Source of the DNA: a virus | Virus record (IMG/VR): IMGVR_UViG_3300027690_000096 | DNA length: 64,000 bases | Reading direction: 5' to 3' (one strand) | In this document: positions 1 through 63,133 of the stretch, piece by piece | How the letters are laid out: the number at the start of each line of letters is the position of its first letter | Position numbering within the stretch: the first letter of the stretch is position 1 | Program-made: the position numbers and the translations under genes | Notes under the pieces: model-generated | The model's input: the letters and a program-made list of their open reading frames with translations, nothing else | Database searches by the model: none | What the model was told of the DNA's origin: nothing

Positions 1-17
1 GCTTAAATATTTCAAGA

Positions 18-371
18 TTGGATGATTATAATAAAAATTATGACATAGTAGAATTTTTAGAACATAATCGAAATGAATACTTCAGAAAGAAAAAAATATT
101 AGACGATCAATATAAACCAATCATACTAATCATATTAAAATCTTGCATTAAAGGAATATTCACAATGTTAATTATTTCAATATTTTTTGTTATATTAACC
201 ATATTATTTAAACTAAACAATTATGCCATTTTGCCTGATGGCTTTTGGCTTAAAAAGTGGTTTTTGATTCCTTTACTTACGGTAGCTCTAATACTTAACT
301 TCTTTTTTTATGAACTCGCGCTACATGAAATAAAACATGAACAATTAAAATCATATTATGGTATGAAATAA
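18..371 (+). CDS. Hypothetical membrane protein (2 TM)
   Basis: ORF track; two hydrophobic segments. Confidence 0.6.
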   Translation: MDDYNKNYDIVEFLEHNRNEYFRKKKILDDQYKPIILIILKSCIKGIFTMLIISIFFVILTILFKLNNYAILPDGFWLKKWFLIPLLTVALILNFFFYELALHEIKHEQLKSYYGMK

Positions 372-22428: not shown

Positions 22429-24489
22429 ATGTTATCCATTGATGAAAAGCTTAGGATATTGCAACCCATACTCGGGACAGAGAAAGTCTTAGGGTTTCGT
22501 AGGTATTATTACATCAAGAATGATTTCAGGGACAAAAAGAGGATTGAGAATCATATTGACCTTCTGATTAGCAGGTATGCAAAGAAAGGCATTGAAGAAG
22601 AGATTATACTGCCACCGCCTGATCCAGAGAGATGCAAAGGCGATATTGCAATAGGTAGAGTCGAATACCTCGGAGTCAAGAAAAGTAATTTTGAGCTTAA
22701 ACTAAAAGACATAAACAGGCATGTAGGCATATTCGGTTCAACAGGCTCAGGTAAAACAACATTTGCGAGAAACGTAATCCGAAAGCTTCACAGAAGGAAA
22801 ATACCTTTCATAGTATTTGATTGGGAAAAATCATATCGAAGTCTTGTGAGAGACATGCCAGATGTCAGGGTGTTCACAGTCGGGACAGACATAAACCCTC
22901 TATTCATCAATTTCTTAACAGTCCCGCCCGGAATACAGTATGACGAATATATCAAGTCAGTCATAGCAGTCATATCAGAAGATTATATAGGCGGAATCGG
23001 AGCAGATACAATGCTTCTCACATACATGGAGAAAGCATACGATGAAACCAAAAATCCATTCTTTGCAGACTTAAAAGAGATAATAGTCAGAGAAATAACC
23101 AAAGACATGAAAGGCAAAGGCAGGCTTGCAGGCAGATCAGGGCTATGGAAAGAATCCGTATCAAGGCAAATCACGTTCATGTCGAAAGGTTCAGCAGGAA
23201 ACATAATCAACACAAGAAACCATTATCCGCTTGAAGAATTATTCCAAAGACCAGTAGTGCTTGAGTTCGGTGGAATCAAGAGTCCGCATGACAGGAAATT
23301 CTTCATCCACATAATCCTGAACTGGTTATCCATATACAACCAATACATGGGAATACAATCAGAGAATCTTAGGCAGGCTATCATATTTGAAGAGTTTCAT
23401 AACATCGCAATACAGAGCAAAGATGATAATATGGTATCAAACCTTTTCAGGGAAAGCCGAAAATACGGTATTGGGTTGTTTGCTCTTGACCAGACGCCTT
23501 CAGAGATTCCTAACTCAATCTTTGCCAACATGAACGTCAAGGTCAGCTTCTCGCTTAACACAAGCAGGGATATATCTGCAATGTCAAAAGCGATGAACCT
23601 TGACATGATGAAAGCCAGATATTTAGGTATGCTTGACACGGGGAAAGCAATCGTAAACATCAAACAGAGGTATAATGATTCGTTCCTTATACAAGCTGAA
23701 TATATCAAGATTGAGGAGAATATGGCAGATGAAGAGCTAAAAGAGTTCATGAAGCCATTCACAAACGAACACACGCAAAATAACACTCTGAATCCTAATC
23801 AGGGCAAATCAAGCAGTTCACAGATAACTGATACTATCACCCCAACTGAAAAACTCGTTATGTCAAATGTCATTGAGCATCCGCTGTTAGGCATTGATAA
23901 ACGAACAAAACTATTAGGTCTTCACTCGTCGGAAATGTCACAGATTCATAAAAGCATGGAAGAGAAAGGCATTATAAGGACTGCAACGATTGACAGAAAG
24001 AAATTGATTGAATTGACAGATAAAGGCAAGGAGATTGCCATAGATGAAGGATTTCAGATTGACCGAAGGAATAGCAGAGGAGGTATTGAACACTTTTACT
24101 GGACTGAACAAGTTTGCCAGTATCTCGGTAAACTTGAATTTCAGCCTGCTAAGGAAATGTTTAACATCGACATAACGGATGTAAGACAAGGATTGGCGAT
24201 TGAGATTGAGACAGGCAAAAGCGATATCAAGAAAAATGTTCTCAAGCTGATGTCTTCAAGGCTCACGAATTGTTATATGCTATCAACAACAAAAATATTT
24301 GAGGTTAAACTCAAAGATATTGTAGATGATACGCTAAGAGATATGCAAACAAAAAAGCCAGAAAAAGAAATAAAAGCCATGTTCATAGGAGATTTTTTGA
24401 AGCTTGCAAAAGACAAAATCATAAGCCAAAACAAACAAGACCTGCCTCAAATCCATACCATCGAAATCCCTCCAAATCAATCGCTTTAG
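22429..24489 (+). CDS. HerA/VirB4/TraG-like (DUF87) P-loop ATPase with C-terminal wHTH and possible nuclease-like domain
   Basis: Walker A GSTGSGKT, Walker B IIFEEFH, RESRKYGIG..ALDQTPS; C-terminal AIEIETGK. Confidence 0.88.
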   Translation: MLSIDEKLRILQPILGTEKVLGFRRYYYIKNDFRDKKRIENHIDLLISRYAKKGIEEEIILPPPDPERCKGDIAIGRVEYLGVKKSNFELKLKDINRHVGIFGSTGSGKTTFARNVIRKLHRRKIPFIVFDWEKSYRSLVRDMPDVRVFTVGTDINPLFINFLTVPPGIQYDEYIKSVIAVISEDYIGGIGADTMLLTYMEKAYDETKNPFFADLKEIIVREITKDMKGKGRLAGRSGLWKESVSRQITFMSKGSAGNIINTRNHYPLEELFQRPVVLEFGGIKSPHDRKFFIHIILNWLSIYNQYMGIQSENLRQAIIFEEFHNIAIQSKDDNMVSNLFRESRKYGIGLFALDQTPSEIPNSIFANMNVKVSFSLNTSRDISAMSKAMNLDMMKARYLGMLDTGKAIVNIKQRYNDSFLIQAEYIKIEENMADEELKEFMKPFTNEHTQNNTLNPNQGKSSSSQITDTITPTEKLVMSNVIEHPLLGIDKRTKLLGLHSSEMSQIHKSMEEKGIIRTATIDRKKLIELTDKGKEIAIDEGFQIDRRNSRGGIEHFYWTEQVCQYLGKLEFQPAKEMFNIDITDVRQGLAIEIETGKSDIKKNVLKLMSSRLTNCYMLSTTKIFEVKLKDIVDDTLRDMQTKKPEKEIKAMFIGDFLKLAKDKIISQNKQDLPQIHTIEIPPNQSL

Positions 24490-25444: not shown

Positions 25445-25930
25445 TTGGAGGAAAAAAATATGTGGAATGAACCAAGCAAAGAAAGATTAGATAAAGTGCC
25501 AAAGCTGTATGCAACAGAAGGAATACCTGTCCAGGACAAAGAGATACACCTGCATTTTTTCATAGGCGGAACAGATTATTATATATCCGAGTTTGACGGA
25601 GAGGATATCATGTTTGGGTTTTGCATCCTAAACAATGATTTAGAGATGGCTGAATGGGGATATATATCCTTAGCAGAACTCAGAGAAATAAAGGTCAAAG
25701 GGTGGCTTGAGGTTGATTGCGAACTTGAAGAGTATTGGACAGTGAAGACAGCGAAAGAAGTAAAACAGATTGCTGATGCCTGCGGATGGGTTACTGAAAC
25801 CCAGAAAGGAGATGAAGATGATTATGCAGACCAATCTTTCAATAAACATTATGGATTTAGTGGAGAAGACATTTCGGGAAGGAATACTGGAAATGGACTG
25901 TCCTGTTTGCGGAGCAATCATCATAACTGA
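25445..25930 (+). CDS. DUF2958-family protein
   Basis: PKLYATE...IHLHFFIGGTDYYISEFD...FGF.......EWGYISLAEL. Confidence 0.82.
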   Translation: MEEKNMWNEPSKERLDKVPKLYATEGIPVQDKEIHLHFFIGGTDYYISEFDGEDIMFGFCILNNDLEMAEWGYISLAELREIKVKGWLEVDCELEEYWTVKTAKEVKQIADACGWVTETQKGDEDDYADQSFNKHYGFSGEDISGRNTGNGLSCLRSNHHN

Positions 25931-26012
25931 ACCCGATGCAGAAGAGCTGTATTGCGAGGAATGCGAAAAAGTGACAGGAAAAAACCCATTAACAGAGTTA
26001 GGCTGGATATAG
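25770..26012 (+). CDS. Small Zn-ribbon protein
   Basis: CPVCG...EPDA...YCEEC. Confidence 0.55.
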   Translation: MLMPADGLLKPRKEMKMIMQTNLSINIMDLVEKTFREGILEMDCPVCGAIIITEPDAEELYCEECEKVTGKNPLTELGWI

Positions 26013-26045
26013 GCTAAAACCACAGCAAAGACAGATTTTAATTCT

Positions 26046-26077
26046 AAAGCCCTCTTGAATTTCAGGAGGGCTTTTTT
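26046..26077 (+). terminator. Hairpin plus T-tract preceding an AAGGAGG RBS
   Basis: AAAGCCCTCTTGA-ATT-TCAGGAGGGCTTT then TTT. Confidence 0.75.
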
Positions 26078-26139
26078 GTTTTTAAACCAAATTTTTCAAA
26101 CTGAATCTTGCAAACTTAAGCTTTAAAAGGAGGAATATC

Positions 26140-26493
26140 ATGCGAAGAGTCAGCTACAAGCTAAAGAAGGAATCGTGGGATGACATGATTGAAGCAGGAA
26201 GACTTAATCCGTCGCTGGAGATAATCTTCAGGGACAAGAAAGGGTCTCATAAGCACAAGATAGGCTCGGGTTACAGTGATGATATTTACGCATACAGAGA
26301 AGCTGAAGAGACATTTATCTTATCGCTAAACGAGGGTTTGGGTTACATCAGCCTTGAATGTTTCAAAGGCGATGAACAGACAGGCGACATTTTCATAGAA
26401 AGTCATGAGGTTGAGAATGCAGTCGGTAAATGCGGGCTAGACCTGGCGCCGCACACAATAATCCGAAGACTCATGTTTGGTGTCGCTGTTTGA
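26140..26493 (+). CDS. Hypothetical protein
   Basis: AAAAGGAGG RBS; ORF track. Confidence 0.65.
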   Translation: MRRVSYKLKKESWDDMIEAGRLNPSLEIIFRDKKGSHKHKIGSGYSDDIYAYREAEETFILSLNEGLGYISLECFKGDEQTGDIFIESHEVENAVGKCGLDLAPHTIIRRLMFGVAV

Positions 26494-26515
26494 AGTGAAA
26501 CATACTTAAAAGGAG

Positions 26516-27055
26516 GTGGCAGTCATGCAAACAATGAAACAGATGTCTTTCATCGACAGTTATGAGAAACAGTTCTGGAAGGATTTGCGGTCTGGCAAAT
26601 TCGCAAAGATGGTCAGAGAAGAATCAAGAGGGCAATACCTAAGAAGTTCAACAGAAGCTTTCAATATCCTGAAACCGATTTATGCGGATGCCATCGACAT
26701 AGAGAGGATGTATTGCATATTCATGGACACAAAGAACAATATCATTTCGATTGACAAAGTATCTCAAGGCTCATTGACTTCATCAGCAGTATATCCAAGA
26801 GAACTTATCAAACTGGCTCTCAAATACATGGCTGGCTCGATTGTAATCAGCCATAACCATCCATCAGGAGATCCGCAACCTTCACAAGAAGATAAGGAAA
26901 TCACTCTCAGGCTGGCGTTTGCTTTCAAGTCAATAGATATCAATCTGTTAGACCACATCATTGTTGGCAATACATATTACAGCTTTGCCGATAACGGTAT
27001 CATGGAAACGATAAACAGCAAATTCAGGCAGGAAACAACATTCAAATCCATATAG
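26516..27055 (+). CDS. radC: RadC-like JAB/MPN-domain protein
   Basis: E.....MDTKN.II......GSL....VYPRE......HNHPSGDPQPSQED..IT......LLDHIIVG. Confidence 0.93.
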   Translation: MAVMQTMKQMSFIDSYEKQFWKDLRSGKFAKMVREESRGQYLRSSTEAFNILKPIYADAIDIERMYCIFMDTKNNIISIDKVSQGSLTSSAVYPRELIKLALKYMAGSIVISHNHPSGDPQPSQEDKEITLRLAFAFKSIDINLLDHIIVGNTYYSFADNGIMETINSKFRQETTFKSI

Positions 27056-27067
27056 GAGGATTATCGC

Positions 27068-27280
27068 ATGGCATACACACCCGAACTCAGTCAGGAGTAT
27101 AGCAGGGTTCTTCGAAGGATTGCATGGGCTTTAAGCCTTCCGATGACGACTGCATTAGAAGAGGTAATATTTCAGTATTCGAGGGACACTGAAAAAGAGT
27201 TGGTTTGCGATAAATGCAAAGACAAATCGTTCTGTCAATCTTGCGTATTCAGCAGGATAGAGAAAGGAGCAGTCCAATGA
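27068..27280 (+). CDS. Small hypothetical protein (RHH-like with Cys tail)
   Basis: GGAGG RBS; YTPELS......LRRIAWALSLPMT..LE; CDKC. Confidence 0.6.
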   Translation: MAYTPELSQEYSRVLRRIAWALSLPMTTALEEVIFQYSRDTEKELVCDKCKDKSFCQSCVFSRIEKGAVQ

Positions 27281-27660
27281 GTGAGAAACTTGCAGATAAC
27301 AGATACCTTGAGAAGAGATGTCAACAGCAGTTTATTGAGCTTAAACTAAAAAACCCTGAAAAGATGCAGGAATATATCAAGAGCTTGTTTGAAAAATACA
27401 ACACGCAAGGCGAGGTCTTGATTGACATCTATAAGATGGTCTTGCCTGACTGGGACATGATTGAGTCAATTTACGCTCATCCAACAATCGGCAAAAGGTT
27501 TTGGCGATGGATTTGCCAGTTATTCATCGAATTTGACAGAAAGCATCATCCAGAAATATTTGCAGGTGGGATTTGGTTCAACCAAGGATTCTCATCAGAC
27601 GGAAAGCTTTCAGACTGGGAGATAAGCTTTGAAAAATGCAGGATAACAATAGCTGAGTGA
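27214..27660 (+). CDS. Hypothetical protein (likely start near 27277, MSEKL)
   Basis: ORF track; AAGGAG RBS. Confidence 0.6.
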   Translation: MQRQIVLSILRIQQDRERSSPMSEKLADNRYLEKRCQQQFIELKLKNPEKMQEYIKSLFEKYNTQGEVLIDIYKMVLPDWDMIESIYAHPTIGKRFWRWICQLFIEFDRKHHPEIFAGGIWFNQGFSSDGKLSDWEISFEKCRITIAE

Positions 27661-27709
27661 CAATGGCTGAATAACATCTAACTAACACTCGACATCCGAA
27701 ACCGCAAAC

Positions 27710-27750
27710 AACCCTTCTGGAATCAATCTGAATCCAGAGGGGTTTTTTTA
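27710..27750 (+). terminator. Hairpin plus T-tract preceding an AAGGAGG RBS
   Basis: AACCCTTCTGGA-N11-TCCAGAGGGGTT then T-run. Confidence 0.7.
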
Positions 27751-27789
27751 TGCAAATTCTACAAGGTTTTAGCCTGAAAGGAGGCAGAT

Positions 27790-28257
27790 ATGACTTTTGT
27801 GGGTATTGTGGGAGCAAGGAAATATAAATGCAAAAATTCGGTTAAAAACCTCATTGTTTCGCTGCCAGAAGATTCAGTGATTGTAACAAGCAATTGCTCA
27901 GGGGTCTGCTCATGGTCACAAGGATTTGCCAGGGAAAGAGGTCTTGAGGTTCTTGTATATGCCCCAGACCTTGAAAACATCCGTTCAAAGTTCGATGTGG
28001 CTGATAGGTATTACATCAGAAACAAAGAGCTTGTTGAGAAGTGCGACCTGTTGCACGCATTCATCAGTAAAGCCGATGGTTACTCTGGGGGAACAAAGTT
28101 CGAAGTCGATTATGCAATCAAGATAGGTGTGCCAGTCAAGGCGCATCATGAAGAAGGCAAAAGCGAGATTTTCCAGCAGTTCAGGATTCCGTTCAAGAGC
28201 GAGGATAACCTTTTCTTCCAGAGATGGGAATCGTTCTTCACAGAAACATTTGCTTAG
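27790..28257 (+). CDS. SLOG-superfamily (DprA/SMF-like) protein
   Basis: VGIVGAR, IVTSNCSGVCSW, RNKELVEKCD.LHAF, GGT...VDYAIK.G.PV. Confidence 0.65.
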   Translation: MTFVGIVGARKYKCKNSVKNLIVSLPEDSVIVTSNCSGVCSWSQGFARERGLEVLVYAPDLENIRSKFDVADRYYIRNKELVEKCDLLHAFISKADGYSGGTKFEVDYAIKIGVPVKAHHEEGKSEIFQQFRIPFKSEDNLFFQRWESFFTETFA

Positions 28258-28940
28258 AACAGACAGCATATAACCTAAAGGAGGATGTCATGCAGACTAA
28301 ACATGTATTGAACGAGAGAGTCAATATAGAAGTCAAGGATAACGAGATTAATTCAGACTGGCATCTAAGCAGATTAGCCCATGAACTGTATTGGTGGTAT
28401 GATTTCATCAACATATTATTTTTCAAAGAAGAGCCTGTGCCTGTGCCAGTAATATCGTTTGAAAAGACCAGTGTAAAAACTCTAGGTCATTTTGTAATCG
28501 GAAAGAATGCGATAGGGCTATCAAATAACATCAACGTAAACAGGATATATCTTCACAGACCATTATGGGAAGTGATTGCTACTCTCACTCACGAGCTTTG
28601 CCATTCATGGCAACAAACATACGGAAAGCTTGAAAGCCGAAACTGGTATCATGGCAAAGAGTTCCAGCAGAAGATGCTTGAGATTGGCATTGTAACAAAC
28701 AACAAAGGACAGCACTTAGCAGTCTCGGACCCATTTGTTTACCTTCTTAGAAGGCACGGAGTCAATGTTTGCATTGAACCCAACATTGAAGGGATATTAG
28801 AGATTGACACAGAACCAAAGAAGAAAGGCAAATCCAAGCTTAAGAAATGGTCATGCGGCTGCACTAATATAAGGGTAGCAATTACCGATTTTAAAGCGAT
28901 ATGTTTGAAATGTGAGAACGAGTTCGAATTGGTCGAATGA
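28224..28940 (+). CDS. SprT-like zinc metalloprotease (likely start 28288, MQTKH)
   Basis: HELCH, HGKEF, C-terminal WSCGC.NIR...CLKC. Confidence 0.88.
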   Translation: MGIVLHRNICLEQTAYNLKEDVMQTKHVLNERVNIEVKDNEINSDWHLSRLAHELYWWYDFINILFFKEEPVPVPVISFEKTSVKTLGHFVIGKNAIGLSNNINVNRIYLHRPLWEVIATLTHELCHSWQQTYGKLESRNWYHGKEFQQKMLEIGIVTNNKGQHLAVSDPFVYLLRRHGVNVCIEPNIEGILEIDTEPKKKGKSKLKKWSCGCTNIRVAITDFKAICLKCENEFELVE

Positions 28941-29818: not shown

Positions 29819-32800
29819 TCACACAATCCTGAATATGCTTAATATCCAGAATCCAGCCATGCCAAGACCTGTAATCAAAGAAAGGACAGTCAGGTAAAAA
29901 ATAGATTTCTGTGTAAAAGTATCGTTATCAATCCTATCAACAAGGTCAGACGTGAAATCAAACAATTTGGCTTTTCGGATTGTGATGTTATATGGCTGTG
30001 AAACCGCCACGTTGTTTGAATAAACCTGAACAAAGCCGTCAATTTTACCTGTGTCATAAAACTCGTTCAGAAAAATATCATCGCTTAAGTTACCCATTGC
30101 AAATATGTATTTTTCTTCGCCTTCTTTGAAGTCAATCTTAGTATGGCAGTCACCAGTCCTAAGCTCACAGATAGCCCCAGAGAAATAAGGCTTTAGATTG
30201 TCGCTGAAAAATAAAGTAGCCTCTTTGATATCCCCGCCAATCGCCTTGATAACGACCTCCTTATAGAAATCGTCTGTGGGGAGATATGAAATAAGTCTTT
30301 CATGCCCTGGATAATAGAACTGAATATAAACAGACATGCTGTTCTGCTGAGTTATTATTTTTGTGATTGTATCGTTAAGCTCTTCTTCATCGAGGTCATA
30401 ATCACCGCTTCCTCCTCCACCACCACCGCTTGAATCTGTAGGTGGAGCAGAGGATATGACTGTATAATCAAAGCTGTTTGAATATGCAGGATAACCGTCA
30501 TTTGTCCCGTTATCGCAAACAAGCCTTATACTTCCGTCATATAACCCTATCGCTGGATTCACAATACTAAGGGTTACATCTACAGATGTGCCTTCTTCGA
30601 TAGAGAACTCTGTATATGATAGATAGCTGTCAAGACCATCTGAAGCGACAAAATTACATTCAGAAGCGTTATAAACTGTGTTTGATATTGTAATAACCCT
30701 TGTATTTGTTTCGGAATTATAAGTGTTAAGAAGCCATATTGTAGTAGGGGATATCGTAAGGACTGCCGAACTTGAAGATACCCTTATTGTGACTGGAAGA
30801 TTGAATGTTTGCCCGTCTATAATCCTTGTGAGAGTTATATTGAAAGTCTGAGAACCTGCCACATTACTGCTATTTAAAGTTACAGTTATAGATGCTTCTG
30901 TTGTATTGATTAAGGATAATGTTGTATTACTGTATGAAACTGCGGATATGAACGAGGCGTTATGATTATCTGTTATGTTGTATTCAAGCGTAGTGTTCTG
31001 GTCTTGTTGAAGACTAAGAGTGAATGTTGTATAGTTTTCTAGCTGAAGAGTATAGTTAAAGTATGCAAGCGAATCGACCTCAGTTGTAACATTTACATCC
31101 TGCACAAGAAAAGATGAATTAACCCAAGCTGTTGAGTTAGCAGTCCCGTCATTCCCGAGGATTGAAAAGGTTATATTCTCTCCGTAATTGTCAAAGTTTG
31201 CGAATGTCAAAGAGGTTCCGTTATACTGCCCTGAGCTGTTTAACACACCATCAACATACCATCTGTAATATGAAGTGTCATTGTCACTATCTGAATCTGT
31301 GAAAGTCCATGAGGCTGATGCAGTCTGTCCTAAGTAAGTATTAGAGAATGTTATCACTGATATTGTAGGATTTGAGTTGGATATGGTAATTGCTGAAGTG
31401 TTAAGATATGAGGAATATGCTGTTCCGTCGCCACAATAGAGTTCAGCTTTCCAGGAATCTCCTTTTTTTGTTATCGAATCTGATACATTGCAAACATTAG
31501 TATTTGTTCCGTTTAAGATAGTCATGCTCTGGATTGAACCATAAGCTGTTGTAGAATTGTATATTTGGCAATAAGAGGTTATGGTGTTGCCTTCATCAAT
31601 ATCTGTGCAAGTTAAATTGAATTGCAAGACATCAGTTGTATAAGCTGTCGCTGGATATGTAGCGTTTGCTGTGATAGTCGGTGCAATGTTTAAAGACAAC
31701 AGAAGTGCATCAAGCGATAATTTACCCCATACTGAAGCTGATATATTCAGATAATTTATTACTCCTGCAGTGAGTGACGATGAGAAATCTGATGTGGTTT
31801 CTGTTGATAACATATCTGATGGGGCATATAAATCGTTGGTAATTGCAAAAGTTCCTTTGTTTAAATTACCACCATCTCGATAAGCTACAATCAATCTACC
31901 ATCTGATAATTCTGTCATTGAAATATAATAAGTTGTTGCTGCATTAAAGACAGTTTCAACACAATTACCGCCTGAACTATTGCATATCGCAAACTCCCCA
32001 TAAAAAGAATTTTCTTCATCTTGATAAGCTACAGCCAATCTACCATCAGATAGTTCTGTCATTGATATTTCGTTGGTCAATGCAGTATTAAACACGCTTT
32101 CAACACAACTACCCCCTGAACTATTACATATAGCTAAAGTCCCATAACTCGAATTTCCACCATCAGTATAAGCCACTGCCAATCTACCATCAGATAATTC
32201 TAAAATTGAATTAAAAGTAGTGGATGCTGAATTAAATACGCTTTCTACGCAACCCCCTCCTGTGCTGTTACATATAGCTAACATTCCATAATTTGAATTT
32301 CCACCATCTTGATAAGCAACAGCTAATCTACCATCTGATAATTCTAATATTGAATTAAAAGTAGTGGATGCTGAATTAAATACGCTTTCAACACAACTTT
32401 CTCCTGAACTATTACAAATGGCAAAAGTCCCATAATATTCATTACCATTATCGGAATACGCAACAGCCAATCTACCATCAGATAATTCTACAATTGAATT
32501 ATGAAAAGTTCCTGCTAAATTAAACACATTTTCAACACAACTACCCCCTGAACTATTACATATAGCTAAAGTCCCATAACTCGAATTTCCACCATCAGTA
32601 TAAGCCACTGCCAATCTACCATCAGATAATTCTAAAATTGAATTAAAAGTAGTGGATGCTGAATTAAATACGCTTTCTACGCAACCCCCTCCTGTGCTGT
32701 TACATATAGCTAACATTCCATAATTTGAATTTCCACCATCTTGATAAGCAACAGCTAATCTACCATCTGATAATTCAGTCATTGATATATAATTACTTGC

Positions 32801-33121
32801 TGCCAAATTAAATATGCTTTCAACACTACTCGTAATGTGTTTATAACTCCAAATATGATTCCCAGCTATAGAAATTATAACTGAAGAAGGATATCCACTA
32901 TCGTTTATACCAGTTACATCCATTGTGGCAGAAAGAATCGTTGCAGAAAGAACGCCTGTATAATCTGTGAGATTTATCGCACATGTTGTAGAATCGTTAG
33001 ATGTTACATTGCATGAAGTCAGTCCGTTTGAGAATGTATTCAAGGTAATTGCAGATATTGGATTGATGAAAGTCACTCCGATTATTGCAATAAATGTTAA
33101 GATTAGTATTTGTTTGTTCAT
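29819..33121 (-). CDS. Large spike/adhesin-like surface protein with seven 48-aa repeats (putative 7-bladed beta-propeller)
   Basis: Signal peptide, 7 ELSDGRLxVAY repeats, many N-x-S/T sequons, Gly linker, C-terminal TM. Confidence 0.85.
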   Translation of the reverse strand: MNKQILILTFIAIIGVTFINPISAITLNTFSNGLTSCNVTSNDSTTCAINLTDYTGVLSATILSATMDVTGINDSGYPSSVIISIAGNHIWSYKHITSSVESIFNLAASNYISMTELSDGRLAVAYQDGGNSNYGMLAICNSTGGGCVESVFNSASTTFNSILELSDGRLAVAYTDGGNSSYGTLAICNSSGGSCVENVFNLAGTFHNSIVELSDGRLAVAYSDNGNEYYGTFAICNSSGESCVESVFNSASTTFNSILELSDGRLAVAYQDGGNSNYGMLAICNSTGGGCVESVFNSASTTFNSILELSDGRLAVAYTDGGNSSYGTLAICNSSGGSCVESVFNTALTNEISMTELSDGRLAVAYQDEENSFYGEFAICNSSGGNCVETVFNAATTYYISMTELSDGRLIVAYRDGGNLNKGTFAITNDLYAPSDMLSTETTSDFSSSLTAGVINYLNISASVWGKLSLDALLLSLNIAPTITANATYPATAYTTDVLQFNLTCTDIDEGNTITSYCQIYNSTTAYGSIQSMTILNGTNTNVCNVSDSITKKGDSWKAELYCGDGTAYSSYLNTSAITISNSNPTISVITFSNTYLGQTASASWTFTDSDSDNDTSYYRWYVDGVLNSSGQYNGTSLTFANFDNYGENITFSILGNDGTANSTAWVNSSFLVQDVNVTTEVDSLAYFNYTLQLENYTTFTLSLQQDQNTTLEYNITDNHNASFISAVSYSNTTLSLINTTEASITVTLNSSNVAGSQTFNITLTRIIDGQTFNLPVTIRVSSSSAVLTISPTTIWLLNTYNSETNTRVITISNTVYNASECNFVASDGLDSYLSYTEFSIEEGTSVDVTLSIVNPAIGLYDGSIRLVCDNGTNDGYPAYSNSFDYTVISSAPPTDSSGGGGGGSGDYDLDEEELNDTITKIITQQNSMSVYIQFYYPGHERLISYLPTDDFYKEVVIKAIGGDIKEATLFFSDNLKPYFSGAICELRTGDCHTKIDFKEGEEKYIFAMGNLSDDIFLNEFYDTGKIDGFVQVYSNNVAVSQPYNITIRKAKLFDFTSDLVDRIDNDTFTQKSIFYLTVLSLITGLGMAGFWILSIFRIV
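31830..32825 (-). repeat. 144-bp intragenic tandem repeat x7, including an exact duplication of about 246 bp (32099-32344 = 32531-32776)
   Basis: Direct sequence comparison; offset 432 = 3 x 144. Confidence 0.92.
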
Positions 33122-33160
33122 TATATCCTCCTTTGGTCGCCTTTAATATCCTTTGGTATT

Positions 33161-33634
33161 CTATCCATATCTTGATTTTAATCTCAGCCAGAACCCAGCT
33201 ATGAACGCCACGCCAATAGTCATAAACGGATATAAAACCCCCCCAGCGATTTTCTCGGAGAGTTCACGCCAGGTATAAAACTCAGCGAGGTTTTCATATT
33301 TATCGAAATCAAAGACTGTATGGGCTGTCATATATCCTTTTTGGACGCTGTCATTAATCTTGAGATTAAAATCAAGGCAAACGCTTTTCGCTCCTTTTCC
33401 GTGCATCACATGAAAGGCTTCTTCGGTAATTGTTGCAAACTGGATGATTCCAAACAAAGAGAGTATTATAAGAAAAATAAACTTGCTTTTTTTCAATGAG
33501 ATTATATTTCTATCATTTGGCTTCTTAATTTTTATTGGTTTCACTTTCTTCACGCTCACAAAAAATATTTGATTATTATCCATACTATTGCCCCTGCCGA
33601 TATAACCAAACCTATTGGGTTGGTAAACAGCCAA
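33161..33634 (-). CDS. Membrane protein, possibly a degenerate M50-like peptidase
   Basis: TM, then EEAFHVMHG, then second TM. Confidence 0.45.
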   Translation of the reverse strand: MAVYQPNRFGYIGRGNSMDNNQIFFVSVKKVKPIKIKKPNDRNIISLKKSKFIFLIILSLFGIIQFATITEEAFHVMHGKGAKSVCLDFNLKINDSVQKGYMTAHTVFDFDKYENLAEFYTWRELSEKIAGGVLYPFMTIGVAFIAGFWLRLKSRYG

Positions 33635-35373
33635 ATTGAGGCTTGAATCAAAAAAGGCATTAGGAGATATAGCGTTAAAAGTGTTATGAATATTAAAAAG
33701 ATTATTATAGTCAACGCTACATATTTCATTATTCCATCGCTGTGAATCGAGACTGAAGAAGAAGACAGCAAAGGAAACTTATTGACTATGAGCGAAACTA
33801 AGGTAGGAATATTATTAACATTCTTATCCTTAGTAGATGTAAGGTCTATTGATTCTCGTTCAGTTATTGGTTCAAGGATTGGTTCAGCAGATTCTAAGAC
33901 GGGTTCAACAGCTACATAGACGCAACTAAAGTTTAGGCATTGCATACCATCACAGCAATCGACTGAAAACACGCAAGAATCGCCTTCTGATATACATGAA
34001 CTGCCACCGCCTCCACCTCCACCGCTGCTTTCGCCTGATGAGGTTATCGGGCTTAATGTGTAATAATATAGATTGTAATCATATCCTGTTGAATAATTAG
34101 TGCTAGGTATGCTCAATTCAGCGTATGTAACACCATCTGTTGTAGTATGCGAGACTAAAGAAGAGGTTGTATTATCTGTTGCAGAAGAACCCCAAGTGGC
34201 AGTCTTACTCTCCCATTCGGTTATCGAGGTAAGGTCTATATTTTCTGTTATTATCTTGTTTGACAGATTGAAGTTTAAGAAATATGTCCTGTCAAGAGAC
34301 CAAAGGCGATATTCGCCAGACAAAACATAATCAGATATTGATTCTCCGCTCCAGTTTGATATGACTGCATCATAACTAAACCTATATTCCTGCGAGCTTG
34401 AAGAGTTTAAGACAGACAGATTAAACAAGATATGGGTATTATTATATGAAGAGTTCAAGTCAGGCCATAAAAGCCCGTCTTGTTTTTCAGCGAGAGTAGA
34501 CGAATCATAATAATCAAGACTTATTGCAAGCATTATCTCAGGAAGGTCAACAGACAAAGTATTATTCAACGTAAAAGCCTTGTATATATTATAACCAGTT
34601 CGGACTATGAAGGTATCTCCTGCAATCGTATAACTCAAATCCTCCTCGATGAAATCTGCTGAATATGAACCATTATGTGACGTAGTCCCGTTTGTGACAT
34701 TAATTATCCTGTAAGAATTTCCAGCATTTGCTCCGAAGGAAATGTCTGTAAAATTTCGCAATAGATTATTTGTTATGTTGAATTCACGCAAGAAATGTTG
34801 TAATTCAAGACTACTATATGATAAATTGTCTTGATAATATTCAGAGCCAGGCAAAGAAACCTCCACGCCTTTTTGTTTTGTTGTATTGATTCGAAAATGC
34901 GAATCCAATGCAGTCGGATAAAAACTGTTCGAAGAGTTTTGAGGCAATGTGATTGAGCCAGAGCATGAATTAATGGTGCTGTTGTATGCCAGACTCTTAT
35001 TGCCTGATTGAGTGTTAATGTAACAAGAAGATATGCCAAACACACCAGAGGTCACATCATAACTCGCATTATATGACTGATTGCCAGACAATAGAGAGGT
35101 CAAGTTTATTTCAACATTCTGTATCAATGAGGCGATTGAACCATTGATATATAACCCAGTCGCAGTCACGTTAACGCTTGACGCATTGAAAGCTGTAACG
35201 ACTGTATAAGTATTATTACTGCTTGTCGGATTAAAGATGACTCCATCGCCTACTTCGACAGCGTAAGTTGAAGACATTAATATTAAACTAAAAAAAAATA
35301 AGAAGCTGAAACTTAATAGGCTGGAATATCTACTGGAATATTTGCTGGTTTTATCATCTGTCTTTGGTTTCAT
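33556..35373 (-). CDS. Surface glycoprotein with Gly linker, Cys-rich knot and C-terminal TM anchors
   Basis: Signal peptide, N/S/T-rich, SSGGGGGGG, CISEGDSC..CC..C, terminal hydrophobic helices. Confidence 0.8.
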   Translation of the reverse strand: MKPKTDDKTSKYSSRYSSLLSFSFLFFFSLILMSSTYAVEVGDGVIFNPTSSNNTYTVVTAFNASSVNVTATGLYINGSIASLIQNVEINLTSLLSGNQSYNASYDVTSGVFGISSCYINTQSGNKSLAYNSTINSCSGSITLPQNSSNSFYPTALDSHFRINTTKQKGVEVSLPGSEYYQDNLSYSSLELQHFLREFNITNNLLRNFTDISFGANAGNSYRIINVTNGTTSHNGSYSADFIEEDLSYTIAGDTFIVRTGYNIYKAFTLNNTLSVDLPEIMLAISLDYYDSSTLAEKQDGLLWPDLNSSYNNTHILFNLSVLNSSSSQEYRFSYDAVISNWSGESISDYVLSGEYRLWSLDRTYFLNFNLSNKIITENIDLTSITEWESKTATWGSSATDNTTSSLVSHTTTDGVTYAELSIPSTNYSTGYDYNLYYYTLSPITSSGESSGGGGGGGSSCISEGDSCVFSVDCCDGMQCLNFSCVYVAVEPVLESAEPILEPITERESIDLTSTKDKNVNNIPTLVSLIVNKFPLLSSSSVSIHSDGIMKYVALTIIIFLIFITLLTLYLLMPFLIQASIWLFTNPIGLVISAGAIVWIIIKYFL

Positions 35374-35410
35374 GTTTAGGTTGATGTTGATTTTTTTTAC
35401 TGATTTTTCG

Positions 35411-36634
35411 TTAAGATTTTACTGCTGCAAGGCTGGCTCCGCTCATTATCCTGATTATATATCCTCCGTCAAAATCGTCAGGGATTTTATGTATTTCTTT
35501 TGCAGATATTGAAGCATTTATTGTCAATATTCCATCATCTCCGAACACGCTGAATATGTTTGGATATATGTTTGTATCTGTGCTGAGTGTGCAATTGTCG
35601 GAGATATTTATAGCCCAATCGCCAGAGCCTGAGTATGTGCATGTGTCAGTTATTGTTGTAATATTAAGTGCATCAAGCGATAATTCTCCCCAGACTGAAG
35701 CAGATATATTCAGATAATTTACAACTCCTGCCGTGAGTGAAGATGAAAAGTCTGATGTGGTTTCTGTTGATGAAAAAATTCCTGATTGATTCCAGATAAC
35801 CGAATCAGAGATTGAAATTGATGGTGAAGATGGATAAGTTTCATCTTGATACAATTTAAAATCAGCAATTGCACCAGTGCTACTTAAACCACCCGACACT
35901 TTCCATCCAGTTGATGGATGATTATAACCCATTAAATATTTATCTGTAGATTTATTTATTAAAATAGTATATCTAGCAAAAGAAGTAGTAGCAGTTTGAT
36001 TTATAAAATCGAAAAAGATTATATATTTTTTATCATCTGATATATAATATGTTGAATCAAAAGTAATATTTCTATACTCACCAGAACTTACAGACCCCCA
36101 AGATGATAAATTATAATCATTTGCAACTATAGTATAATTGGAAGAACAATTATCTACAGGATTATATCCACTTGTCGATAAAAAATCAATAATATCAGTT
36201 TCACATATTTTAATATCAACTACAAAATTTTCATTTTCTGGTTCTCCTACATCTTCACCCATTAATAATCCAATTTTAAATATATTACCTGTTGATGAAT
36301 TTGTAATTAATAAATAACCATCATAACCTAATGATACAGTATTATATCCACCACAAAATATTACTGGTAAACTTGTCCCATCTGGTTTTTCTGAAATAAA
36401 TGAATTATAAACTTCTACTATTGATGTTGCAATCCCACTAATATTCATGGTAGCAGAACTAACGCCTGTATAATCTGTAAGATTTATCGCACATGTTGTA
36501 GAATCGTTAGATGTTACATTGCATGATGTCAGTCCGTTTGTGAATGTTGTTAATGTATCCGCAAATATCGCGATAGATAAAGCTAATAAGAGAATAAAAA
36601 ATACATAAACCTTAATAATATTTCTGCTTAACAT
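35411..36634 (-). CDS. Secreted spike-like protein sharing a scaffold with 29819-33121
   Basis: Shared NGLTSCNVTSNDSTTCAINLTDYTGV and STETTSDFSSSLTAGVxNYLNISASVWG segments. Confidence 0.8.
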   Translation of the reverse strand: MLSRNIIKVYVFFILLLALSIAIFADTLTTFTNGLTSCNVTSNDSTTCAINLTDYTGVSSATMNISGIATSIVEVYNSFISEKPDGTSLPVIFCGGYNTVSLGYDGYLLITNSSTGNIFKIGLLMGEDVGEPENENFVVDIKICETDIIDFLSTSGYNPVDNCSSNYTIVANDYNLSSWGSVSSGEYRNITFDSTYYISDDKKYIIFFDFINQTATTSFARYTILINKSTDKYLMGYNHPSTGWKVSGGLSSTGAIADFKLYQDETYPSSPSISISDSVIWNQSGIFSSTETTSDFSSSLTAGVVNYLNISASVWGELSLDALNITTITDTCTYSGSGDWAINISDNCTLSTDTNIYPNIFSVFGDDGILTINASISAKEIHKIPDDFDGGYIIRIMSGASLAAVKS

Positions 36635-37827
36635 ATTGTATAAACACCTGTGCTATTAACTTTCTCATAACATCCGTTTCCAAAATATCTGACGTTCCCA
36701 TTTGTTTCGGTCTGATTGATAAACCCTGATAATGTTAGGCTTGTTCCTGTCGCTACCCCGAGAATTGGAGTGACTAAAGTGGGGCTTGTTGCAAAGACCC
36801 AAGCTCCTGTGCCAGTCTGGTTGCTTACCTTTGCTAATAGTGTTGCATAAGTCCAGTCCCATAATGTGTGATTGGTATTAGACCAAAGATAAGCTAAGTC
36901 CCAGTTTGTGCTGTCCTGAACCTTGCTCTTAGAAAGCGTTCCGTCTGCGAGGTCTGCAAGGTCTGCATCATAAGCCTGAACAGAAGAGCCTATATCAGAA
37001 TCATCAACAACATTATTCCCATTCTGATTTATAGTTACTGCACTCAAGAGATTTATGTTGGTGGCATTACGATTATTAAAGTTTAAATTATTCACAGCGC
37101 CTGAATATGGAACAAAATTTTCAACACTTACTGCTCCTACTGGCATGACCAGCCTAGTCTTACTTGCGCCTTGTATATATGCGTCTATATCTGGGCTTAC
37201 ACCCGTTCCAGTTACATAAGCATACCCTTTAACACGAATTCTGTTGGTTGTATCAATCATTGTTTCATTCAATAATATCCAAATCGAATAATCAGTTCTT
37301 GTTGTTGTAAGACCTGATGTATATTCTGAAGTTGCAAGCAGAGTCTCATTGCCTCCTGTTGAATTTGTTTTATATACCTCATAATAAAACTGCACAATCT
37401 TGCTTGATGATGATTTCTTTCCAGCAACATGAACCCTCATGTTTCCCTCTATGAGATTTATATTTGGCACACCAACATCGGTTATCCATTCGCCTAATAA
37501 TGTTGAGCCATCAGCTAAAGAAGTGCCTGATAATGTGACCTCTGTTGCATTATAAATAGAAGTAAGCGTTTTATTTCCAGGACATGATGAACAAGAGCTT
37601 GATTTATCAGCAAAATATAATATCAGCTCCCCTTGTTCTAATCCTGTCAGCTTTGAACCATCTCCATTAATATAAGTCGCATTCAATGTATCAACTCTTA
37701 TGTATGTGTCCTGAATGTTCGTGGTCACTGCAAACGCTGAATATGAAAATAACATCAAGAAAGAAATCAATGTTAGAATCATGACTGGTCTTTTTAGAAA
37801 CTTAAACTTTGTATTTTTATTTGTCAC
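36628..37827 (-). CDS. Secreted fibre-like protein with phage tail-fibre-type motifs
   Basis: GDGSKLTGL, QAYDADLADLADG, GTGAWVFATSPTLVTPILG. Confidence 0.65.
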   Translation of the reverse strand: MTNKNTKFKFLKRPVMILTLISFLMLFSYSAFAVTTNIQDTYIRVDTLNATYINGDGSKLTGLEQGELILYFADKSSSCSSCPGNKTLTSIYNATEVTLSGTSLADGSTLLGEWITDVGVPNINLIEGNMRVHVAGKKSSSSKIVQFYYEVYKTNSTGGNETLLATSEYTSGLTTTRTDYSIWILLNETMIDTTNRIRVKGYAYVTGTGVSPDIDAYIQGASKTRLVMPVGAVSVENFVPYSGAVNNLNFNNRNATNINLLSAVTINQNGNNVVDDSDIGSSVQAYDADLADLADGTLSKSKVQDSTNWDLAYLWSNTNHTLWDWTYATLLAKVSNQTGTGAWVFATSPTLVTPILGVATGTSLTLSGFINQTETNGNVRYFGNGCYEKVNSTGVYTIC

Positions 37828-47098: not shown

Positions 47099-47608
47099 TT
47101 ATGTTCGCGCAAGGCTAAGATAGATTGGAGCCTTAAGATAAGGAGGGCATTTAGGTAGATTTCTTTTTTTATTATATAAGCCTTGATTAATATTTATAAC
47201 TGAATTTAATACTTTTCTGTAGCCTTGTTCATCACGAATATCTATACAGAGTAAACCACTTATTATATAGACAGTATTAAGCAGAGTTGACCTAGAGATT
47301 TTCATATGCTTACTAATTTCATTATACATCTTTTCTAAAGTTACTTTACAATCCTTGCTTGGAAGATTATGCAGATATTTAGCAATCAAGATAATCCTTA
47401 AAGCCATCCTTTTATTTATATGAATAAAACTTACTGGCTCTCCTGATGAATCATATCTATACACTAATCTGAATTTGTTATGGATTGGTATTCTTGATTT
47501 TTTTTTACAATTGTTAATTGGATTAGTTTGGTCTGGATTATCCTGAATAGAATTATAATTTTCTTTAGATGTATCATAATGAAAATTTGTTGAGTCTTCT
47601 GTCATCAT
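47099..47608 (-). CDS. Winged-helix-like DNA-binding hypothetical protein
   Basis: VTLEKMYNEISKHMKISRSTLLNTV. Confidence 0.5.
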   Translation of the reverse strand: MMTEDSTNFHYDTSKENYNSIQDNPDQTNPINNCKKKSRIPIHNKFRLVYRYDSSGEPVSFIHINKRMALRIILIAKYLHNLPSKDCKVTLEKMYNEISKHMKISRSTLLNTVYIISGLLCIDIRDEQGYRKVLNSVININQGLYNKKRNLPKCPPYLKAPIYLSLART

Positions 47609-62611: not shown

Positions 62612-63133
62612 ATGATAGATTATGAGAACTATCCAGATTCAAGCCAGGATGTCAAGCAAAATCCTGATATCAGGCAAACCGAGCCTGGCATAACCCTCAA
62701 CACCCAAAAAATCAAAGTCCTTCTAACAACTGAAGAGGTATTGAGGATAAACAGCGAATCAGGTTTTCCTTCAATAAGAGAATCTGTCAGAGAGATAAAT
62801 GGACAACCAGTTGAAGTCATTGAAGAACTGTATCGCATTGACCCTATCGGAAGAGTCATACGCAATGATGACTTTGCAGGCATAAGTTGGCTGATGAAGA
62901 AAATAATCCCTTCAGACCTTATCGCAATCTGTCCAGGTTATTTCGGGGTTCATCAAGACCCAAGGCAACTATGCTTGTTTGTTGACGGTTTTCCAATAAC
63001 CTTTGAACCTGATTTTGAAGACAGTGAGCTTGCAGGGAAAACCCTATCATTCTGTTCTACATGCCATAAAATCTTTAGCGAGCATGTCAAATGGTATAAA
63101 CGAAGCAGTTGGCTTTTCCCACTGCACATCTGA
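62612..63133 (+). CDS. Hypothetical protein
   Basis: GAGGT RBS; ORF track. Confidence 0.55.
   Translation: MIDYENYPDSSQDVKQNPDIRQTEPGITLNTQKIKVLLTTEEVLRINSESGFPSIRESVREINGQPVEVIEELYRIDPIGRVIRNDDFAGISWLMKKIIPSDLIAICPGYFGVHQDPRQLCLFVDGFPITFEPDFEDSELAGKTLSFCSTCHKIFSEHVKWYKRSSWLFPLHI

What the first reader, a model, noticed from the sequence alone, without database searches (positions are those of the whole stretch)
31703..36547. Two spike genes share one scaffold domain with different passenger domains inserted at different loops
Seen: 29819-33121 and 35411-36634 share an 87-bp N-flank (84/87 identical) and a 106-bp C-flank. Both also contain a middle motif YPSSxxISIxxxxIW. In the first gene the 7-repeat propeller is inserted after this motif. 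In the second gene an unrelated AT-rich domain is inserted before it. No recombinase or reverse transcriptase is nearby. Inference: a plug-and-play receptor-binding system in which a conserved carrier domain accepts interchangeable passengers, and the near-identical flanks allow swapping or gene conversion by homologous recombination to switch host range.
Basis: partly seen in the sequence, partly recalled or inferred. Interest (0 to 1): 0.82.

Follow-up and report, generated by a model that had tools for sequence, protein, structure and literature searches.

The report
Split display domain carrying swappable lectins
Two neighbouring surface-protein genes of an archaeal mobile element start with the same small beta-sandwich domain, which carries a different sugar-binding domain in a different loop in each gene; relatives use this carrier with at least ten other inserts, but nothing shows active swapping or a virus.

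Summary
Genes A (29819-33121) and B (35411-36634) share 84/87 nt and 96/106 nt tracts with sharp borders, plus the YPSS..IW motif.

An AlphaFold model of B (pLDDT 75), searched against solved structures, indicates that the N-flank, the motif and the C-flank form one jelly-roll domain of about 115 residues. A CBM-like jelly roll is nested in loop 1. In A, a seven-bladed lectin-type propeller (similar to Photorhabdus PLL2/PHL) sits in loop 2.

The carrier has no Pfam match. It occurs in relatives of this element and in DPANN archaeal surface proteins, in 16 of 301 genomes of one phylum. At least ten unrelated passengers occupy one or both loops, and one passenger family appears in either loop.

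The flanks have far fewer synonymous differences between A and B than against the orthologue in a 70%-identical sister element. This points to recent homologous exchange. Flank near-identity is not general (63-76% between copies in another protein), and no recombinant contigs were seen.

No virus hallmark genes were found. The context (integrase, MCM, HerA/VirB4-like ATPases, pilin-like genes, RadC/SprT) looks like a conjugative or cell-contact element. "Spikes" and "host-range switch" are therefore unsupported. The genes are better read as modular adhesins.

The parts
29819..33121 (-). Gene A (P0001, 1100 aa). Order: signal peptide, split display domain with a propeller in loop 2, Ig-like region, Gly linker, C-terminal domain, TM anchor.
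   Evidence: ORF and translation. It has 41 N-x-S/T sequons, 3.7 per 100 aa. The C-terminal 191 aa are 58% identical to the C-end of P0010.
32948..33046 (-). A N-flank (aa 26-58). By correspondence with the gene B model, these are strands beta1-beta3 and the start of beta4 of the carrier. It lies within the DNA repeat 32937-33058.
   Evidence: The strand assignment is transferred from the model of B through the alignment.
32849..32947 (-). A inner scaffold strands: SATMDVTGI and YPSS..IW, joined by a short, empty loop 1 (NDSG). A 15-nt tandem duplication (LSATI/LSATM) lies at the flank border.
   Evidence: Only 62-70% nt identity to the B counterpart.
31811..32818 (-). A passenger in loop 2: seven 48-aa blades, a lectin-type beta-propeller.
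   Evidence: Tandem 144-nt repeats and the blade table. phmmer against PDB gives PLL2 6rfz E 2.3e-6 and PHL 5mxe E 5.4e-4 over aa 105-417.
31700..31807 (-). A C-flank (aa 439-474), last strands of the carrier. DNA repeat 31703-31808.
35411..36634 (-). Gene B (P0002, 407 aa). Order: signal peptide, split display domain with a passenger in loop 1, C-terminal module of about 80 aa. No TM anchor.
   Evidence: Model of aa 22-330.
36458..36556 (-). B N-flank (aa 27-59). DNA repeat 36447-36568.
35840..36427 (-). B passenger in loop 1 (aa 70-265): CBM / galactose-binding-like jelly roll, 26.4% GC.
   Evidence: CBM35, CBM32, CBM6, Eph ligand-binding and neuropilin b1 domains align to model residues about 50-243 with Z 6.4-7.2. 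It is 32% identical to the loop-1 insert of P0146. GC.
35792..35836 (-). B YPSS..IW motif (aa 267-281), strands beta5-beta6.
35663..35770 (-). B C-flank (aa 289-324), strands beta7-beta9. DNA repeat 35666-35771.
35414..35653 (-). B C-terminal module (DTCTYSGSGDW...). It is found at the C-end of more than 100 protein clusters that have unrelated N-terminal domains.
33556..35373 (-). P0003 (605 aa), a sequon-rich surface protein encoded between A and B. In relatives its core is fused into the same polypeptide as the carrier.
   Evidence: P0003 aa 84-448 is 57% identical to P0010 aa 1285-1649. It is also present in P0127.
33161..33634 (-). Small ORF (157 aa) between P0003 and A. In L001 its counterpart lies directly upstream of the single fused gene.
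   Evidence: blastn of L001 6342-6556 against window 33475-33264 gives 78.6%.

Best explanation
A and B are co-oriented paralogous genes for secreted, heavily N-glycosylated adhesins. They lie in the surface/transfer gene block of an integrase-bearing archaeal mobile element on a 73.8-kb contig, probably from a DPANN archaeon. Each protein opens with the same jelly-roll 'display' domain of about 115 residues, whose chain is interrupted by a nested passenger domain. In B, a CBM-like jelly roll sits between strand beta4 (SATMNISGI) and beta5 (YPSS). In A, a seven-bladed lectin-type propeller sits after beta6 (..IW) and before the C-flank strands. Both ends of a passenger emerge from one loop, so the carrier can fold around almost any compact domain and hold it out from the cell surface. 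Comparison shows the carrier is a family with no Pfam match that is used this way in DPANN surface proteins and in sister elements, with many different passengers. The near-identical DNA of the two flanks is best explained by a recent homologous exchange between the two paralogues in this genome, either short-tract gene conversion or a partial duplication. The same kind of event could move a whole cassette. Shown: the repeats, the mosaic borders, the passenger diversity and the deficit of synonymous differences. Modelled: the single discontinuous domain. Inferred: glycan binding, a role in cell-to-cell contact for the element, and recombination as the route of cassette exchange.
For: Repeats and sharp borders.

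Structure: the AlphaFold model of P0002 aa 22-330 was built from a 22-row alignment and has pLDDT 74.9, pTM 0.63 and scaffold blocks at 80-95. Single-domain jelly rolls of 107-131 aa and single domains within larger chains (Ena1B 7a02 Z 8.0 with 94 aligned; BcsB 6yg8 Z 9.0 with 110 aligned; CBM51) align across model residues 1..309. CBM-type domains align to about 50..243. This gives two nested domains.

Both loops filled: P0010 and P0127 carry inserts in both loops. P0126 has three carrier copies with different inserts.

Canonical carriers: proteins from Pacearchaeota and Iainarchaeum genomes and from 16 of 301 genomes of that phylum carry NHL-like, BNR-like, beta-helix, Cys-rich and CBM-like inserts.

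Passenger diversity: at least 10 passenger types are mutually unrelated. One family occurs in loop 1 (L003) and in loop 2 (P0127), at 32% identity and E 3e-21. Passengers also occur without the carrier in P0004 and P0008.

Recent exchange: synonymous codon differences between A and B are 4 (N-flank) and 8 (C-flank), against 13-16 versus the L001 orthologue. The inner scaffold strands are only 62-70% identical at nt level. Fisher p = 0.019.

Other: passenger B is 26% GC against 35-39% in the flanks. Sequon density is 3.7-4.5 per 100 aa against 0.1-1.0 in cytoplasmic proteins. The propeller is similar to the PLL2/PHL lectins.

Context: MCM, CedD/HerA-like and VirB4-like ATPases, RadC, SprT, methylases and an integrase.
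Against: The model rests on a shallow alignment, and I could not inspect coordinates. The one-domain reading comes from alignment ranges and lengths with middling Z scores (7-9), and the Foldseek TM scores were low. Gene A itself was not modelled. Two DPANN proteins show a C-half of the carrier without a recognisable N-half (L014, L015), so the halves may be semi-autonomous. The synonymous-site test uses only about 75 codons. In P0126 the flanks of the three copies are only 63-76% identical in DNA, so the flanks are not general recombination handles. There are no expression data, no host assignment and no binding data. The window element's ATPase was not found in 401 genomes of the phylum searched.
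Confidence: 0.62

Rival explanations
1. Programmed plug-and-play switch. The near-identical flanks are maintained as recombination arms, so that cassettes are swapped or the genes fused at appreciable frequency to retarget binding.
For: The direct repeats of 87-122 and 106 nt are long enough for homologous recombination. The flanks are homogenised at synonymous sites. The locus shows other very recent recombination: blades 2 and 5 are 100% identical in DNA, blade 4 is a chimera, and a 15-nt duplication lies at the flank border. The sister element L001 has the single-gene form (with its own loop-1 insert) rather than two genes.
Against: No joint or alternative path appears in the only run that holds the locus. 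The three contigs across the repeat have equal depth (23.6, 25.0, 24.9), so a deletion form is at most a small minority. Only two copies exist and both are complete genes; there is no silent cassette store. Flanks are not homogenised in P0126. No dedicated recombinase or reverse transcriptase is adjacent.
Confidence: 0.12
2. The two proteins are virion spikes (receptor-binding proteins) of a novel archaeal virus or provirus, and the passengers set viral host range.
For: Nested CBMs in a beta-sandwich loop are typical of phage adhesion devices ('evolved Dits', PMC7291167). Weak fold matches include phage tail and baseplate proteins. The upstream gene 36628-37827 has a motif that I recall from tail fibres. 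An integrase is present. Archaeal virus proteins often escape profile searches.
Against: No capsid, portal, terminase or tail family was found in Pfam or PHROGs. There were no hits in IMG/VR or in 50,697 phage records. The block instead holds five pilin-like genes, polytopic membrane proteins, a VirB4-like ATPase and a 686-aa CedD/HerA-like ATPase. The canonical carrier sits in cellular membrane proteins with cytoplasmic PRC-barrel tails.
Confidence: 0.18
3. Assembly artefact. Two strain variants of one gene were stitched in tandem at a shared repeat, so the two-gene arrangement is not real.
For: The de Bruijn contigs break exactly at the 47-nt exact repeat in the N-flank.
Against: One 3523-nt contig runs from one N-flank copy to the other. 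Its depth equals that of both neighbours, as expected for a single tandem arrangement. The C-flank copies lie inside long contigs. The 73.8-kb contig and the Logan assembly agree, although both derive from the same sample, so this is not independent support. The flank copies differ at 3 and 10 positions.
Confidence: 0.04

Closest known systems
Evolved distal tail proteins (Dits) of siphophages of Gram-positive bacteria
   Same: A peripheral beta-sandwich (galectin) domain carries one or two carbohydrate-binding modules inserted in its loops. The modules vary between phages (PMC7291167). The ESM Atlas structure search listed a Dit/Sipho_tail cluster at TM 0.40.
   Different: There is no Dit ring domain, no tail module and no sequence relation. 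The carrier here is a distinct family with no Pfam match, found in DPANN archaeal surface proteins. The passengers include whole seven-bladed propellers. The proteins are membrane-anchored or carry a separate C-terminal module.
Photorhabdus seven-bladed propeller lectins PLL2 / PHL (PDB 6rfz, 5mxe)
   Same: The gene A passenger aligns over about 310 residues, and both have seven blades of about 48 aa.
   Different: Similarity is weak (E 2.3e-6). The Photorhabdus lectins are free soluble proteins, not nested in a carrier. The sugar-binding residues were not checked.
Fsx1-type integrated mobile elements of archaea (Moi et al. 2022, PMC9259645)
   Same: These are large integrase-bearing elements with HerA and VirB4-type ATPases, proposed to move by cell contact or fusion. 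A distant relative of the window element (L008) carries a HAP2/GCS1-family gene three genes upstream of its carrier protein P0127.
   Different: No fusexin was detected in the window or in L001. The published elements come from haloarchaeal genomes and from metagenomes. The relationship rests on a few weakly similar genes.
Cassette variation systems (Neisseria pilE/pilS gene conversion, tail-fibre shufflons, DGRs)
   Same: Conserved flanks border a variable binding segment, and there is evidence of homologous exchange.
   Different: There are no silent cassettes, no invertase with inverted repeats and no reverse transcriptase with a template repeat. The mismatches are not adenine-specific. Only two expressed-looking copies exist.

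Membership tests
Evolved Dit (phage distal tail protein with inserted CBMs) | N-terminal Dit ring domain (Pfam Sipho_tail / SPP1_Dit) | tested here: not met
   No Pfam or PHROGs family matched P0002 or its neighbours; P0001 had only two marginal, unrelated Pfam matches.
Evolved Dit (phage distal tail protein with inserted CBMs) | Beta-sandwich domain with a carbohydrate-binding module nested in a loop | tested here: met
   This holds at the level of a predicted model. The scaffold is model residues 1-49 plus 244-309 and the CBM-like domain is residues 50-243.
Evolved Dit (phage distal tail protein with inserted CBMs) | Location in a TMP-Dit-Tal tail module | tested here: not met
   No tail genes were recognised. 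The neighbours are pilin-like, membrane and Cys-rich exported proteins.
PLL/PHL-type propeller lectins | Seven tandem blades of about 48 residues with sequence similarity to PLL2/PHL | tested here: met
   Seven 48-aa blades. 6rfz E 2.3e-6 and 5mxe E 5.4e-4 over aa 105-417.
PLL/PHL-type propeller lectins | Conserved sugar-binding pockets between blades, and sugar binding itself | not tested
   No residue-level comparison or assay was done.
Programmed cassette-variation systems (pilE/pilS, shufflon, DGR) | Silent donor cassettes, or a site-specific invertase with inverted repeats, or a reverse transcriptase with a template repeat | tested here: not met
   Both copies are full genes with signal peptides. 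The repeats are direct. No RT or invertase was found in the window ORFs scanned. The only recombinase is an integrase more than 30 kb away.
Fsx1-type archaeal integrated mobile element | A fusexin (HAP2/GCS1-Fsx1) gene | tested here: not met
   No hit even at E up to 10 for the exported proteins of the block. BLASTP of the positional counterpart found only a short match in the membrane-anchor segments (E 0.036) and no ectodomain similarity. The Atlas search gave nothing. A fusexin is present only in the distant relative L008 (HAP2-GCS1 8.2e-13).
Fsx1-type archaeal integrated mobile element | HerA/VirB4-type ATPases plus a tyrosine recombinase | tested here: met
   CedD/HerA-like 22429-24489 (1.8e-32, below cutoff). 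The VirB4-like match at 47605-49008 covers only aa 38-76, around the Walker A (2.1e-5). Integrase 3.7e-27 on L011.
Viral spike / receptor-binding protein | Encoded in a genome with capsid and packaging hallmark genes | tested here: inconclusive
   None were found. Most ORFs have no match at all, so a novel virus cannot be excluded.

The most novel reading that the evidence does not exclude
DPANN archaea and their mobile elements possess a dedicated two-socket 'display' domain, a jelly roll with no Pfam match, that can present almost any lectin or propeller. On mobile elements, paralogous copies exchange whole passenger cassettes by short-tract gene conversion at the conserved flank strands, retargeting which cells the element or its host can dock to.
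Probability: 0.25. Interest if true: 0.75.

Novelty: new variant of a known kind. Interest (0 to 1): 0.55.

Why it matters
DPANN archaea live by attaching to other cells, and how they or their mobile elements choose partners is largely unknown. This carrier domain is recognisable but apparently uncatalogued: it had no Pfam, NCBIfam or PDB sequence match here. It marks where the binding modules sit in otherwise unannotatable giant surface proteins, which gives a direct handle for finding and comparing their specificity determinants. It is also a natural example of a small scaffold that tolerates large insertions at two sites, which is useful for display engineering. If the flank exchange seen here is recurrent, it would be an example in archaea of cassette retargeting by homologous recombination.

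Tried and rejected
- Single-sequence AlphaFold of P0002 failed (pLDDT 36).
- MAFFT placed scaffold fragments wrongly in three alignments (A3, A8, A9). I discarded or trimmed them before modelling.
- IMG/VR found nothing, either with the protein or with two degenerate flank patterns. The phage records gave no hit for the two neighbouring genes queried (36628-37827 and the ATPase 47605-49008).
- A word-based search with A aa 20-100 returned only the query itself.
- The JGI metagenome scan with the C-flank profile found a single contig.
- Only one sequencing run holds the locus, and it is kept as contigs.
- A profile search of PDB sequences with the carrier alignment gave nothing.
- Foldseek against PDB, BFVD and AFDB gave only low-TM beta-sandwich matches.
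- DGR rejected: no reverse transcriptase, and the mismatches are not A-specific.
- A fusexin in the window was sought and not found.
- The element's ATPase was not found in 401 genomes of the Pacearchaeota genome's phylum, so the host is unassigned.
- The idea that the flanks are universal recombination handles was rejected after the P0126 comparison.


Full report
**1. Observation**

The minus strand holds gene A (29819-33121, 1100 aa, P0001) and gene B (35411-36634, 407 aa, P0002). P0003 (33556-35373) and a small ORF lie between them.

The repeat finder and direct counting give two shared tracts:
- N-flank: 84/87 identical nt at 32951-33037 vs 36461-36547, and 107/122 over the longer tract.
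- C-flank: 96/106 at 31703-31808 vs 35666-35771.

Identity collapses to background within one or two 30-nt bins on either side. BLASTP finds only these two segments as significant similarity between the proteins. The YPSS..IW motif is present in both, but it is only 62% identical in DNA. Seven 144-nt tandem units follow the motif in A. In B, a 196-aa segment of 26.4% GC precedes it.

**2. Is there one discontinuous carrier domain?**

Comparative evidence came first.
- P0010 is the single orthologous gene of a syntenic sister element, L001, which has about 70% nt identity over most of 24.6-43.8 kb of the window. It has the same N-flank, inner strand, YPSS..IW and C-flank, but with inserts in both positions: a WD40/SGL-like propeller before YPSS and a propeller like that of gene A after IW.
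- An exhaustive HMMER search with P0002 added two more. P0127 has both loops filled with yet other domains. P0126 has three carrier copies in one protein. The first carries a gene A-type propeller in loop 2. The second carries an LVIVD propeller in loop 2 (Pfam 5.5e-23). The third carries a third repeat domain in loop 1 plus a 193-aa domain in loop 2.
- The same search found a more canonical form of the carrier (..ENLTFxGxENxTRY.EIPK.ANVTSA.LNLTGY | insert | ..YLEIGN.DG..EWN.TG.F..T.DF...L...L..C....C.VPF.FHSD..G.L..S.I.I) in P0128, P0193, P0146, P0149 and P0184.
- A genome scan placed the canonical form in a Candidatus Pacearchaeota protein of 1785 aa, which has two copies with different inserts, and in a Candidatus Iainarchaeum protein.
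- A profile of its C-half hit 16 of 301 genomes of that phylum. All hits lie in open frames of 426-2534 aa. Those inspected carry loop-1 inserts that look like NHL-type and BNR-type propellers, a Gly-rich beta-helix-like segment and a Cys-rich domain.
- All-against-all BLASTP of 17 passenger segments shows at least ten mutually unrelated types. One family occupies loop 1 in the Pacearchaeota protein but loop 2 in P0127 (32% identity, E 3e-21). Two passenger families also occur outside any carrier, in P0004 and in P0008 (70% identical to A's propeller).

Structure. Single-sequence AlphaFold failed. With a checked 22-row alignment, the model of P0002 aa 22-330 reached pLDDT 74.9 and pTM 0.63, with 80-95 in the scaffold blocks. 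Coordinates are not exposed, so I used an all-against-representatives structural alignment.
- Single-domain jelly rolls of 107-131 residues, and single domains within larger chains, align with 94-111 residues across model range 1..309. Examples are the Ena1B spore-appendage subunit (Z 8.0), the BcsB carbohydrate-binding domain (Z 9.0), CBM51 and the galactosidase sugar-binding domain.
- CBM35, CBM32 and CBM6, the Eph ligand-binding domain and neuropilin b1 align to about 50..243.

The simplest reading is two nested domains. The carrier is P0002 aa 22-70 plus 265-330: beta1-beta4 (N-flank and SATMNISGI), beta5-beta6 (YPSS..IW) and beta7-beta9 (C-flank). The CBM-like passenger is aa 71-264.

The Z values are middling and indicate a common fold, not a family. 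The carrier profile matched nothing in PDB by sequence, and no Pfam family matched it.

Caveats: the alignment is shallow, gene A itself was not modelled, and two DPANN proteins show an extra C-half without an obvious N-half.

**3. What the passengers and proteins are**

- A's propeller matches the Photorhabdus lectins PLL2 and PHL over about 310 residues (E 2.3e-6 and 5.4e-4).
- B's passenger is 32-34% identical to the loop-1 insert of P0146, P0149 and P0184. These are membrane proteins with cytoplasmic PRC-barrel tails, so that carrier-passenger pair is old and cellular.
- A, B and P0003 carry 3.7-4.5 N-x-S/T sequons per 100 aa, against 0.1-1.0 in the window's cytoplasmic proteins. They have signal peptides, and A ends in a TM helix. 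This is as expected for archaeal surface glycoproteins.
- B lacks a TM anchor. It ends in an 80-aa module (DTCTYSGSGDW..) that closes more than 100 protein clusters with unrelated N-terminal domains such as LamG and propellers, and that also exists alone. Its role is unknown. Attachment to another surface component is a guess.

**4. Context**

The window lies on a 73.8-kb contig, and no whole genome is held for it. It encodes:
- an archaeal MCM;
- two DNA methylases;
- a cpYpsA-family protein;
- RadC;
- an SprT-like protein;
- a 686-aa CedD/HerA-like ATPase;
- a 467-aa ATPase with a VirB4-like Walker A.

The minus-strand block upstream of A and B is full of pilin-like, polytopic and Cys-rich exported proteins. 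An HTH_17 gene and a tyrosine integrase lie just past the 3' end, on another contig of the same sample that carries the window's gene 62612-63133.

No capsid, portal, terminase or tail family was detected in Pfam or PHROGs. Nothing was found in IMG/VR or the phage records.

A distant relative, L008, shares a CPBP-like gene at 40% identity, RadC and the carrier protein P0127. It carries a HAP2/GCS1-family fusexin gene (8.2e-13) three genes upstream of P0127. Archaeal fusexins were described in integrated elements with HerA, VirB4 and XerC/D genes, proposed to move by cell fusion (PMC9259645). The window itself has no detectable fusexin.

I therefore read the element as an integrative, conjugation- or contact-type element, and A and B as its adhesins rather than virion spikes. 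A new kind of virus is not excluded.

**5. Why are the flanks nearly identical in DNA?**

Protein-level constraint alone does not explain it.

| Segment | Synonymous codon differences, A vs B | A or B vs L001 orthologue |
|---|---|---|
| N-flank (32 codons) | 4 | 15-16 |
| C-flank (32 codons) | 8 | 13-15 |

The inner scaffold strands are far more diverged between A and B. Pooled synonymous differences are 12 of 60 identical-residue codons in the flanks against 8 of 15 in the inner strands (Fisher p = 0.019).

B's signal peptide, N-flank and inner strand are closest to the N-end of P0010. A's YPSS motif and everything downstream are closest to the rest of P0010. The two-gene state therefore looks derived from a one-gene state by a rearrangement within loop 1. 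After that, or as part of it, the flank copies were homogenised.

The locus shows other fresh recombination scars:
- blades 2 and 5 are 144/144 identical;
- blade 4 is a chimera;
- a 15-nt tandem duplication lies at the inner edge of A's N-flank;
- passenger B has a foreign base composition.

So homologous exchange did happen here, and it is a plausible route for moving cassettes.

Three results argue against a maintained switch. The three carrier copies of P0126 have flanks only 63-76% identical in DNA, while the adjacent Ig-like domain is 82-92% identical. The only run holding the locus shows no joints. The contigs on either side of and between the N-flank copies have equal depth: 23.6, 25.0 and 24.9. 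Rare recombinants cannot be seen in contigs, so the read test remains open.

**6. Comparison and verdict**

The closest known design is the evolved Dit of siphophages, in which one or two CBMs are inserted into loops of a galectin domain (PMC7291167). The present carrier is not a Dit: it has no ring domain and no tail module. It is a separate family, with no Pfam match, centred on DPANN archaea.

The finding is a new variant of a known kind. The 'spike / host-range switch' half does not, at least not yet.

Noticed in passing
L008:4839-6617 (relative of the window element); positional counterpart in the window is 42714-44114: A distant relative of this element encodes a HAP2/GCS1-family fusexin (Pfam 8.2e-13) three genes upstream of its carrier protein. 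The window's Cys-rich 466-aa protein at the equivalent position shows no detectable similarity.
   Followed up: partly
window 31811-32818: Propeller blades 2 and 5 are 100% identical in DNA (144/144). Blade 4 is a chimera of blades 2 and 1. Logan unitigs in this stretch have doubled depth. This is a very recent internal duplication of about three blades.
   Followed up: yes
window 32906-32947: There is a 15-nt tandem duplication (LSATI/LSATM) at the inner border of gene A's N-flank, exactly where identity with gene B ends. It may be a recombination scar.
   Followed up: no
window 35414-35653 (B aa 328-407): An 80-aa C-terminal module (DTCTYSGSGDW...) is shared by more than 100 protein clusters with unrelated N-terminal domains (LamG, propellers) and by stand-alone 80-150 aa proteins. 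It has no Pfam family, and its function is unknown.
   Followed up: partly
window 36628-37827: The gene that overlaps B's start encodes a 399-aa exported protein with motifs (QAYDADLADLA, SPTLVTPILG) that I recall from phage tail fibres. It had no database match in Pfam, PHROGs or the phage records.
   Followed up: partly
window 33556-35373 and 29819-30406 vs L001:6701-12268: P0003 and the C-terminal anchor domain of gene A are separate genes here. In the sister element (P0010, 1855 aa) and in P0127 they are parts of one polypeptide. This is gene fission or fusion within the family.
   Followed up: yes
L011:4921-6280 (contig of the same sample that continues past the window's 3' end): An HTH_17 gene and a tyrosine integrase (3.7e-27) end that contig, so the element is integrative.
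   Followed up: partly
L005-L007 (JGI contig, more than 16 kb of one open frame): A frame of more than 5124 aa, open at its 3' end, is a longer form of P0126. Its 1115-aa unit (gene A-type propeller carrier plus LVIVD-propeller carrier) is repeated four times. This is either real amplification or an assembly effect.
   Followed up: partly
window 25445-28940 and 14434-16044: DUF2958, RadC, SprT-like and DUF4942-methylase genes lie together. From my own knowledge, this combination is typical of the leading regions of bacterial conjugative elements.
   Followed up: no
window 35840-36427: Passenger B is 26.4% GC, against 35-39% in its flanks and 36.1% for the window. This suggests import from a lower-GC genome.
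   Followed up: partly
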